Source: a virus (taxonomy: Duplodnaviria > Heunggongvirae > Uroviricota > Caudoviricetes). Taken from it: a stretch of 5,586 nt of DNA. Location: IMG/VR virus record IMGVR_UViG_3300022775_000062, positions 1-5,586 of that record. One strand, 5' to 3'. How positions within the stretch are numbered: the first letter of the stretch is position 1; every line of letters starts with the position of its first letter. A model generated the notes under the pieces. That model saw only the letters and a list, made by a program, of their open reading frames with translations, did no database searches and was not told the DNA's origin. A program made the translations under genes and the position numbers. Positions 1 to 1,454 of this stretch are shown piece by piece.

Positions 1-1454
1 TTATCCTGCATGATTTTAACCAGTCTCTTCCGTTTTACCGTCCGAGGCTTTCAGCGTGGCGGTCAGCGTATCCAGTTTTCCGCTTGCTGCCGCTGCCAGT
101 AAAACGTTCGCTGATTTCAGGGCTTCCTCACCAAAAATGGTTTTAAGGTATTCCCCCTTCTGAGACGTTCCCAGCTTGTGTTTATCAAAGCTGGCCTGAA
201 TCTCTTTCAGAATGGTGAACAACGGACGCATATTTCCCTTTTTTGTCCGAGGTTTTTAACGCCAAGCTCTTTGAGTGCATCCCATGCTTTTTCCAGTCGG
301 TGCCTGTAATCGGGTGACAACGGCACTGCTACCCGTACCCGCCATTGACCCCCTGATGTTATTGTCATGCAGCACACCTGTCATGGCCGCTGCCTGCTCA
401 AGACTTACACCTGCCGTCTTCGCAACCGGCCCGAGATAAGTCAGTGCATCACTGAGTCCCTGAAAAATCAGCCGCCGACCTTATTCATCGTTGCCGACAA
501 CACGTCGCCCACATGACTGACATCATCATTTGACAGTTGAAAGGATGCCTTAGTCCCCAGCAACAGTTGCGCGTTTTCTTCCATCGACCGCTGATTCGCC
601 AGTGCCATATTCAGCGTGACCGGCGTTGCCGCCTGAATAGCCGCAGCATCTCCACCCGCTTTCGCAATGATAATCTGTGCACCGGCCGCATCATCCGCCG
701 AGGCGGCGGTATTGTCGCCGAGCTGGCGCGCCTGTTTGCGTAGTGCGGTCATTTCGGCGGAGTCTTTTGCCACACCTAGCACGGCCTGCAATTCTGAGTT
801 TTTCTGCGCAAACTCATAACCGGGCATCAGCAACTTAACTCCGGCCATCGTTCCCGCAGCAGCAATCCCCACACCGGCAGCGCCCACTGAGGCCATATTT
901 CCGGCCAGTTCCTTTCCGGCCTGATAACGCTGTTTTACTGCGTTAAGTTTTGCCTGTTGCGCACTGACACGCGCCAGCGCGTCACGCTGACGGTTAAGTT
1001 GTGCGGTGGTTTCACTGATACGGTTTTTCAGCCCCTGCTCATCATGTGCAAGATTGCGGGTATTAATTCCCACAGCGGCCAGTTCCCGCTGCTGGCGTTT
1101 AACGGAATCCGTCAGGCGGTTATATTTCGCCTGTAAGTCCTCCGCCGCACGCTTTGCGGATTCCAGCACTTTCGCCTGAGCACGGGTCGGACGTTCGGTG
1201 TTTTTAAACTGTGTGGCAAGGGTTTCGGCCTCCTGCCGTGCCTTTTCAAGTGCATGACCAGTCACGGCGAGCTGTGCACTGGTCTTGCGAAATCCCTCAA
1301 TACGGGATGTCTGACCGTTCAGCTCGCGCAGTGATTTTTGTGTTTCCCGGATATCCCCCGACAGCGATTTGCTCGCTGTGCGGATGGATTTAAACGGGCG
1401 GGATGCCTGGTCAACAGCCCTGAGCAATACCTGTAATTTTACATTGTTACTCAT
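1..1454 (-). pseudogene. T: Phage tail tape measure protein (P2 gpT-like), N-terminal part; reading frame broken several times; gene continues past the window start
   Basis: ORF 468..1454 (328 aa) starts at ATG 1452-1454 and is Ala/Gln/Lys/Arg-rich with coiled-coil character and a Gly/Ala-rich hydrophobic stretch, typical of tape measure proteins. It ends at TGA 468-470, but tape-measure-like sequence continues in a second frame (about 286-471), a third frame (about 240-290) and then the frame of ORF 16..231, which stops at TAA 16-18. Position directly downstream of E/E' matches the P2 FI-FII-E-T order. P2 gpT is roughly 800 aa from memory, so this is only part of the gene. Confidence 0.8.

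What the first reader, a model, noticed from the sequence alone, without database searches (positions are those of the whole stretch)
1..480. Tape measure gene switches frame three times within about 250 bp
The N-terminal ORF stops at TGA 468-470. Protein-like sequence then continues in frame 2 (LIFQGLSDALTYLGPVAKTAGVSLEQAAAMTGVLHDNNIRGSMAGTGSSAVVTRLQAPTGK), moves to frame 3 at the T5 run 288-292 (KAWDALKELGVKTSDKKG), and moves again near 232-245 into the frame of ORF 16..231 (MRPLFTILKEIQASFDK...). That ORF ends at TAA 16-18, and a shifted frame appears to read on (VKIMQD) to the window edge, which would be a fourth break. If real, no full-length tape measure can be made and the tail module is non-functional.
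Basis: seen in the sequence. Interest (0 to 1): 0.5.

Follow-up and report, generated by a model that had tools for sequence, protein, structure and literature searches.

The report
Six extra bases break tape-measure gene
The tail tape measure gene of an ordinary P2-like E. coli prophage is broken by six one-base insertions packed into the last 480 bases of the window, found in no related sequence, and these are most likely sequencing or assembly errors.

Summary
Window 1-1454 (minus strand) holds the first 482 of 815 codons of the P2-type tape measure gene T. It is about 98% identical in DNA to Peduovirus P24B2, Wphi and many E. coli prophages. There are six single-base insertions, at 479-480, 463-467, 288-292, 253-257, 239-244 and 24, and no deletions. 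Deleting these six bases restores one open frame to the window edge. That frame is 475/482 identical, without gaps, to intact T and contains a complete PF10145 domain.

All 65 comparison loci lack all six bases. The best complete E. coli genome matches span 514 bases for 520. Exact-pattern scans of three public collections find none of the inserted versions. In 1-480 the window has six insertions, only two substitutions against its nearest relative, and no private substitution. Two more private one-base deletions split the tail tube gene (2175/2176) and an MFS transporter gene (4091-4095).

This pattern fits indel-type sequence error concentrated at a poor-quality end (confidence about 0.8). 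It fits natural pseudogene decay poorly (about 0.15). It is not programmed frameshifting. The genuine P2 E/E' slip site lies intact at 1620-1626. Interest is low.

The parts
1..1454 (-). 5' 59% of P2-type tail tape measure gene T (482 of 815 codons once the six extra bases are removed). It runs off the window at position 1.
   Evidence: 97.8% nt identity to Peduovirus P24B2 T and 97.3% to Wphi T. Corrected translation is 475/482 identical to P24B2 T with no gaps. PF10145 PhageMin_Tail 1-201/201, E 4.7e-45.
479..480 (-). Insertion 1: one extra base (CC on + strand where relatives have C; AAG-TCG becomes AAGGTCG on the coding strand). It puts TGA 468-470 in frame.
   Evidence: Absent from all loci covering the site. 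Pattern scan found 0 hits in viral contigs.
468..470 (-). Premature TGA that ends the 328-aa ORF. In intact T these bases are read as G-CT-GAT (..A V/A D..).
463..467 (-). Insertion 2: A5 on + strand (T5 on the coding strand) where relatives have a run of 4.
   Evidence: Pattern scan found 0 hits. The pattern spanning insertions 1 and 2 found 0 hits in viral, genome and metagenome contigs.
288..292 (-). Insertion 3: T5 on + strand (A5 on the coding strand) where relatives have 4.
   Evidence: Pattern scan found 0 hits.
253..257 (-). Insertion 4: T5 on + strand where relatives have 4.
   Evidence: Pattern scan found 0 hits.
239..244 (-). Insertion 5: T6 on + strand where relatives have 5.
   Evidence: Pattern scan found 0 hits. 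The control pattern with T5 found 50 listed hits.
24..24 (-). Insertion 6: an extra base not in a homopolymer (coding strand GAAGAGCTG becomes GAAGAGACTG). It puts TAA 16-18 in frame and returns the true reading frame to the original one.
   Evidence: Pattern scan found 0 hits.
2175..2176 (-). Private one-base deletion in tail tube gene FII (GGTAAGAGCC becomes GGTAGAGCC). It splits the 172-codon gene into 137-aa and 111-aa ORFs.
   Evidence: (61 of 61 loci have the extra A). Pattern found 0 hits in metagenome contigs. The 137-aa product is not on record.
4091..4095 (-). Private one-base deletion in the MFS transporter gene (C5 where both relatives have C6). It splits the 397-codon gene into 346-aa and 84-aa ORFs.
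   Evidence: Pattern found 0 hits in genome contigs. The 346-aa product is not on record.
1620..1626 (-). Intact TTTTTTG slip site of the genuine programmed -1 frameshift of P2 E/E+E' (E 1599-1874; E' reads on to 1447). Included for contrast.
   Evidence: sequence. Pfam PF10109 on E and PF06528 on E'. Site as described for P2 in PMC3091744. No indel in 1447-1900 against 63 loci.

Best explanation
The gene is an ordinary P2-type tape measure gene T in an E. coli P2-like prophage. The frame switches are most likely base-calling or consensus errors: single-base over-calls, mostly lengthening short runs. They are concentrated in a low-quality or low-coverage stretch at one end of the sequenced piece, with two further one-base under-calls elsewhere in the window. 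On this reading the real DNA encodes an intact T, and the apparent pseudogene exists only in the record.

Shown here: the six insertions, their positions, their absence from all relatives, and the restoration of an intact, 99%-identical reading frame when they are removed.

Inferred: that they arose in sequencing rather than in the cell, and that position 1 is a contig or read end.
For: (1) All six differences are +1 insertions. Four lengthen runs of 4-5 bases, one doubles a single base, and none is a deletion.

(2) All six lie in 24-480. There is no window-specific indel in the other 974 bases of T, in E/E' or in the sheath gene. For a fixed 480-bp stretch, the chance of holding at least 6 of the 8 private indels is about 1e-5.

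(3) In 1-480 the window differs from its nearest relative (E. coli AST215) by only 2 substitutions, and both are shared with other phages. It has 0 private substitutions against 64 aligned loci. With a natural indel-to-substitution ratio of 0.05-0.2 (assumed from general knowledge), at least 6 indels among 8 differences has P of 3e-7 to 4e-4.

(4) Removing the six bases gives a gapless 615/615 alignment at 99.5% to E. coli T genes, one open frame of 482 codons, 475/482 protein identity without gaps, and a complete PF10145 domain.

(5) None of the six is seen anywhere else. All 65 loci lack every one of the six that they cover. The best of 1,204 matching complete E. coli genomes span 514 bases for the 520-base query. 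Scans for each inserted version found 0 hits in viral contigs, against 50 listed hits for the un-inserted control. The double-insertion pattern found 0 hits in genome and metagenome contigs. The 328-aa truncated product is not on record among 153 billion gene positions.

(6) The same window has two other private one-base indels in runs. They break the tube gene and an MFS gene that is otherwise about 99.7% identical to its two relatives. That gives 8 indels in 5.6 kb, a rate typical of an unpolished or low-coverage assembly.

(7) Short indels associated with homopolymers are the main error type of long-read assemblies and are known to create false frameshifted pseudogenes (PMC12007338; PMC9262707).
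Against: No reads, quality values or coverage are available, so the error origin is inferred and not observed. I could not show that position 1 is a contig end; the odd window length of 5586 and genes cut at both ends only suggest it.

Only 4 of the 12 runs of 4 or more bases in 1-480 are affected, and one insertion (24) is not in a run, so this is not a simple systematic homopolymer bias.

Real single frameshifts in this gene do occur. Four independent IMG/VR contigs share a one-base deletion at the window-equivalent of 472, and another contig has a private +1. A broken T gene is therefore not implausible in itself. Three broken genes in one window would also fit a decaying prophage.
Confidence: 0.8

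Rival explanations
1. Genuine pseudogene. The prophage is defective, and T has accumulated six real +1 frameshift mutations, along with one each in the tube gene and the cargo MFS gene. No tape measure or tail is made.
For: As written, the sequence cannot encode T: the ORF is 328 aa and the Pfam domain is truncated at 88/201. Two other genes in the window are also frame-broken. Natural or at least shared T frameshifts exist in relatives: L019, L022, L025 and L051 share one, and L044 has one.
Against: There are six indels against two substitutions, and no private substitution in 1-480. Neutral decay long enough to collect six indels should have left tens of substitutions.

All six are insertions, whereas bacterial pseudogene decay is deletion-biased (general knowledge). 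All six lie in the terminal 480 bases.

None is shared with any of 65 loci, about 1,200 E. coli genomes or three public collections. Relatives that do carry a frameshift in this stretch carry just one each. The rest of the tail block shows no decay: sheath, E and E' are intact, and the sheath protein is identical to one found in more than 25,000 blocks of the assembly collection's index.
Confidence: 0.15
2. A real, single clustered mutational event. In this reading, a patch of error-prone synthesis during repair, or a mismatch-repair-deficient lineage, scattered +1 slippage insertions over about 460 bp of T.
For: The tight clustering and uniform type of the six changes would fit one event better than six independent ones.
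Against: From my own knowledge, I know of no mutational process that gives only +1 insertions with no base substitutions over a 460-bp patch. Error-prone polymerases and mismatch-repair loss give mainly substitutions and -1 events. The two extra indels at 2176 and 4091 lie outside the patch and are deletions. Nothing similar is seen in 65 relatives.
Confidence: 0.03
3. Programmed recoding or phase variation. In this reading, the frame changes are decoded by ribosomal frameshifting or transcriptional slippage, or they are switchable homopolymer tracts that regulate T.
For: Several sites are A/T runs. A genuine programmed -1 frameshift (E/E') lies 1.1 kb away in the same operon.
Against: Recoding sites are conserved, but here 0 of 65 relatives have the two-frame arrangement at any of the six sites. 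Six consecutive +1 corrections would be needed, with in-frame stops a few codons after several of them. The runs are only 5-6 bases, too short for contingency loci (general knowledge), and their length does not vary among relatives. Insertion 6 is not in a run at all.
Confidence: 0.01

Closest known systems
False frameshifted pseudogenes caused by short-indel errors in unpolished or low-coverage assemblies (long-read, 454/Ion Torrent or single-pass Sanger read ends)
   Same: The changes are single-base indels, mostly lengthening or shortening short runs, and are private to one record. There are no accompanying substitutions. The gene is restored to a perfect match with relatives once they are removed, and several genes in the same short piece are affected (PMC12007338).
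   Different: The platform and the reads are unknown. Six of the eight errors are insertions packed into one 480-bp end, rather than spread evenly, and one is not in a homopolymer.
Tape measure protein gpT of phage P2 and the Peduovirus genus (PF10145 PhageMin_Tail)
   Same: It has 97-98% nt identity. The gene order is the same: FI, FII, E, E', T. T starts 8 bases inside E', as in P24B2 and Wphi, and the corrected protein is 99% identical.
   Different: As written, the reading frame is interrupted six times. Only the first 482 codons lie in the window.
Programmed -1 frameshift of P2 E/E+E' (tail assembly chaperone; TTTTTTG)
   Same: It is a frame change inside the same tail operon, at a T run. 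It is present and intact in this window at 1620-1626.
   Different: The E/E' site is conserved in all relatives and needs no change in the DNA. The T-gene shifts are DNA insertions absent from every relative, and they would need +1 corrections.
Shared T-gene frameshift in a lineage of P2-like prophages (IMG/VR contigs L019, L022, L025, L051)
   Same: A one-base indel in the same part of T (window-equivalent 472) splits T into two ORFs.
   Different: That is one deletion seen identically in four independent records, and is therefore probably real. The window has six insertions seen in no other record.

Membership tests
P2-type tape measure gene T (PF10145) | Significant match to the PhageMin_Tail profile | tested here: met
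   Corrected 482-aa translation: PF10145 1-201/201, 154 bits, E 4.7e-45. Uncorrected 328-aa ORF: positions 1-88 only, 46.6 bits.
P2-type tape measure gene T (PF10145) | Position directly downstream of the E/E' chaperone pair in the FI-FII-E-E'-T tail operon | tested here: met
   Sheath 2461-3651, tube 1931-2448, E 1599-1874, E' to 1447 and T from 1454, all on the minus strand. The order is the same as in P24B2, Wphi and E. coli prophages.
P2-type tape measure gene T (PF10145) | One uninterrupted reading frame (815 codons in relatives) | tested here: not met
   As written, the frame is broken six times. It is uninterrupted for all 482 codons in the window only after removal of six bases.
Sequencing/assembly indel artefact | Single-base indels, mainly at runs of one base | tested here: met
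   There are 8 one-base events. Five change runs of 4 or more bases, two change runs of 1-2, and one (24) is not in a run.
Sequencing/assembly indel artefact | Private to the one record, and absent from independent sequences of the same gene | tested here: met
   No covering locus among the 65 has any of the six. The best complete genomes span 514 bases for 520. Scans for the inserted versions found 0 hits, against 50 listed hits for the control. Truncated products are not on record.
Sequencing/assembly indel artefact | Indels in large excess over substitutions; the sequence is otherwise near-identical to relatives | tested here: met
   In 1-480 there are 6 indels, 2 substitutions against L015 and 0 private substitutions. 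The corrected sequence is 99.5% identical without gaps.
Sequencing/assembly indel artefact | Reads or quality values that contradict the consensus at the sites, or low coverage there | not testable with these tools
   No reads, qualities or coverage are available for the window, and the source record was not found in any collection.
Genuine prophage pseudogene | The mutation is inherited, meaning it is seen in independently sequenced relatives or siblings | tested here: not met
   None of the eight indels is seen elsewhere. By contrast, the deletion at window-equivalent 472 is shared by four IMG/VR contigs.
Genuine prophage pseudogene | Neutral decay signature: substitutions accompany the indels, with a deletion bias | tested here: not met
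   No private substitutions in 1-480, and six insertions with no deletions in T.
Programmed ribosomal frameshift / recoding | Slip site and two-frame arrangement conserved among homologues | tested here: not met
   All relatives read T in one frame at all six sites. The conserved site in this operon is E/E' at 1620-1626.
Phase-variable (contingency) homopolymer tract | A long tract (usually 7 or more bases) whose length varies among strains | tested here: not met
   The tracts are 5-6 bases in the window and 4-5 in all relatives that cover them, with no length variation among those relatives. The length threshold comes from general knowledge.

The most novel reading that the evidence does not exclude
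The six insertions are real and arose together, as a localised shower of +1 slippage events in a prophage tape measure gene. Possible sources would be an unusual error-prone repair patch, or a process that specifically disables the tail module. That would be a mutational signature not described for E. coli.
Probability: 0.03. Interest if true: 0.45.

Novelty: not a real feature. Interest (0 to 1): 0.06.

Why it matters
It matters mainly for quality control. If taken at face value, this window would be annotated as a defective prophage with three pseudogenes (T, tube and MFS). The evidence says the underlying genes are probably intact and ordinary.

The case also gives a practical rule for the scan. 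Suspect an error before proposing biology when several one-base frame breaks share these features: they are private to one record, they carry no accompanying substitutions, and they cluster near a sequence end.

If the breaks were real, the result would still be a familiar one: a decaying P2-like prophage unable to make tails.

Tried and rejected
(a) Finding the source record. I looked up the exact truncated products: the 328-aa T fragment, the 346-aa MFS fragment and the 137-aa tube fragment. None is on record. Exact DNA patterns across the insertions or deletions found nothing in viral contigs, genome contigs or metagenome contigs. I therefore could not establish the platform, coverage or contig context.

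(b) Programmed frameshifting or recoding. Rejected because no relative has the arrangement and the sites are DNA insertions.

(c) Phase variation. Rejected because the runs are short and invariant among relatives.

(d) Systematic homopolymer bias. Rejected in its simple form: only 4 of 12 runs of 4 or more bases in 1-480, and 0 of 15 in 481-1500, are lengthened. The errors are regional rather than sequence-determined.

(e) Apparent extra indels at 1074-1173, 491-504 and 95-120 against some loci. These are compensating gaps in mosaic, about 72%-identical allele classes of T, and are not window-specific events.

(f) Looking for signs of relaxed selection. Private substitutions are few (T A78T, a synonymous change in the sheath gene, MFS H139Q and one synonymous MFS change) and are uninformative.

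Full report
**What the window is**

The ORF list and Pfam scan show a P2-type tail block, all on the minus strand:
- sheath FI, 2461-3651
- tube FII, 1931-2448
- chaperone E, 1599-1874 (PF10109)
- E', reading on to 1447 (PF06528)
- the start of tape measure gene T at 1454, running off the window at position 1

Upstream of FI lies cargo: an MFS transporter (3920-5112) and the end of an alpha/beta hydrolase gene (5290 to the window edge).

Megablast of 1-1500 against phage records gives 97-98% identity to Peduovirus P24B2, Wphi, P2 and many others. There the region is annotated as E+E' and the 2448-nt T gene. The whole 5586-base arrangement, cargo included, occurs in only 2 of 5,426 complete E. 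coli genomes: O84:H7 Trh52 at 98.2% and O170:H18 at 94.6%. In both, T (2448 nt), the tube gene (519 nt) and the MFS gene (1194 nt) are intact.

**Checking the observation**

Base-by-base global alignment to P24B2 and Wphi and to the two E. coli prophages pins the cause: six single-base insertions in the window and no deletions. On the + strand they are:

| Position | Change |
|---|---|
| 479-480 | C to CC |
| 463-467 | A4 to A5 |
| 288-292 | T4 to T5 |
| 253-257 | T4 to T5 |
| 239-244 | T5 to T6 |
| 24 | extra T; coding strand GAGCTG to GAGACTG |

It missed 479-480, which is what brings TGA 468-470 into frame. It also missed 253-257, so its peptide KAWDALKELGVKTSDKKG is stitched from two frames.

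The net change is +6, so the frame at the window edge (LVKIMQD) is the original one. Removing the six bases gives one open frame of 482 codons. That frame is 475/482 identical, without gaps, to residues 1-482 of P24B2 T and contains a complete PF10145 domain. The 328-aa ORF as written keeps only profile positions 1-88 of 201.

**Are the insertions shared with anything?**

They are not.
- I assembled 65 comparison loci: phage records, complete E. coli genomes, assemblies carrying the identical sheath protein, and 50 IMG/VR contigs. Every locus lacks every one of the six bases it covers. This includes loci only about 72% identical in this stretch.
- Among complete E. coli genomes, 1,204 match window 1-520, and the best matches all span 514 bases at 98.3%.
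- The corrected sequence aligns 615 to 615 bases at up to 99.5%.
- Exact-pattern scans for each inserted version found nothing in the viral contig collection, while the control without the extra T found 50 listed contigs.
- A pattern spanning insertions 1 and 2 found nothing in viral, genome or metagenome contigs.
- The 328-aa truncated product is not on record in the assembly collection.

**The pattern of differences**

In 1-480 the window differs from its nearest relative (E. coli AST215, L015) by two substitutions and six insertions. Both substitutions occur in other phages, so 1-480 has no private substitution against 64 aligned loci (the flag at 292 is only gap placement).

Across the whole window, the private events are eight one-base indels and about seven substitutions. 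Four of those substitutions lie in the cargo, where only two comparators exist.

The other two indels are deletions:
- AA to A after 2175 in the tube gene. All 61 of 61 loci have the extra A.
- C6 to C5 at 4091-4095 in the MFS gene. Both of 2 loci have C6.

Each splits its gene into two ORFs with overlapping halves of the Pfam profile. There are no window-specific indels in the remaining 974 bases of T, in E/E' or in the sheath gene.

Simple probabilities:
- At least 6 of 8 indels in a given 480-bp stretch of 5586 bases: about 1e-5.
- Six of six being insertions under equal odds: 0.016.
- At least 6 indels among 8 differences, if natural indels are 5-20% as frequent as substitutions (my assumption from general knowledge): 3e-7 to 4e-4.

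**Interpretation**

A gene that had decayed long enough to gather six frameshifts should also have gathered many substitutions and some deletions, and at least the oldest lesion should appear in relatives. None of this is seen.

What is seen is the classic picture of indel-type sequence error. The indels are one base long and mostly lengthen or shorten short runs. They are private to one record, carry no accompanying substitutions and are concentrated in one terminal stretch. Removing them restores near-identity with relatives, and a few more are scattered through the same short piece.

Short indels, largely at homopolymers, are the dominant error of long-read assemblies and inflate frameshifted pseudogene counts until polished (PMC12007338; PMC9262707). 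From general knowledge, 454/Ion Torrent data and the tails of single-pass Sanger reads behave similarly. I cannot say which platform applies here.

The odd window length and the genes cut at both ends suggest that the window is a whole short contig, and that 1-480 is its poorly covered end. This is inference only. I put the artefact reading at about 0.8.

**Rivals**

*Real pseudogene, about 0.15.* This cannot be excluded without reads, and real frameshifts in T do exist. Four IMG/VR contigs (L019, L022, L025, L051) share a one-base deletion at the window-equivalent of 472 that splits T into two ORFs, and L044 has a private +1. Those cases carry one lesion each, and the shared one recurs in independent records. 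That is what an inherited mutation looks like, and the window does not look like that.

*A single clustered mutational event, about 0.03.* This would explain the clustering. However, I know of no process that produces only +1 insertions without substitutions, and it does not explain the two distant deletions.

*Programmed recoding or phase variation, about 0.01.* This is rejected. The arrangement is not conserved in any relative, the runs are short and invariant among relatives, and several shifted frames hit stops within a few codons. The operon's genuine programmed -1 site, TTTTTTG of E/E+E', is present and intact at 1620-1626 (PMC3091744), which gives a clear contrast.

**Comparison with what is known, and verdict**

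The gene is a member of the P2 gpT / PF10145 family by sequence and synteny. It fails only the 'one uninterrupted frame' criterion, and it passes that criterion once the six bases are removed.

The phenomenon belongs with false pseudogenes created by assembly indel errors. Nothing here is new biology. Even if real, it would be an ordinary decaying prophage.

Novelty: not a real feature. Interest: about 0.06.

Noticed in passing
window 2175-2176 (tube gene FII, 1931-2448, minus strand): A private one-base deletion (GGTAAGAGCC becomes GGTAGAGCC) splits the 172-codon tail tube gene into 137-aa and 111-aa ORFs.
   Followed up: yes
window 4091-4095 (MFS transporter gene, 3920-5112, minus strand): A private C6 to C5 deletion splits the 397-codon MFS gene into 346-aa and 84-aa ORFs. 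Both relatives with this cargo have C6, and the gene is otherwise about 99.7% identical to theirs.
   Followed up: yes
window 1620-1626 (minus strand), with E 1599-1874 and E' 1447-1566: The genuine programmed -1 frameshift site TTTTTTG of P2 E/E+E' (tail assembly chaperone) is present and intact. T starts 8 bases before the E' stop, as in P24B2 and Wphi.
   Followed up: partly
window 3652-5586; L003 9644-13600; L004 9647-13600: Cargo inserted between the tail-fibre assembly gene and FI, the variable slot of P2-like phages. It consists of an MFS transporter and an alpha/beta hydrolase, plus a divergent LysR regulator in the relatives. The same arrangement is found in only 2 of 5,426 complete E. 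coli genomes (O84:H7 Trh52 and O170:H18 CFIAFB20120266), and there the prophage sits at different chromosomal sites (next to pflB and next to yegQ).
   Followed up: partly
L019 about 5606-5639, L022 and L051 about 3397-3430, L025 about 2633-2666 (window-equivalent 472); L044 about 4778-4968 (window-equivalent 217): Four independent IMG/VR contigs share a one-base deletion in T (CAGCCGCC becomes CAGCGCC). It splits T into stop-to-stop frames of 353 and 490 codons and is probably a real inherited frameshift in one prophage lineage. L044 has a private +1 (AA to AAA) that also splits T.
   Followed up: partly
window 1-544 against L004-L014 and L016: The middle part of T exists in two allele classes. 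Most loci are about 96-98% identical to the window, but a second group is only about 72% identical in 1-544 while being more than 90% identical in 545-1500. This is a mosaic recombination boundary near window 545-570.
   Followed up: no
window 1223, 3061, 3718, 4324, 4696, 5249, 5273: These are the window's only private substitutions: T A78T, a synonymous change in the sheath gene, an intergenic change, a synonymous MFS change, MFS H139Q, and the sites at 5249 and 5273, which lie just downstream of the hydrolase stop and were not assessed further. There are too few to show relaxed selection.
   Followed up: partly
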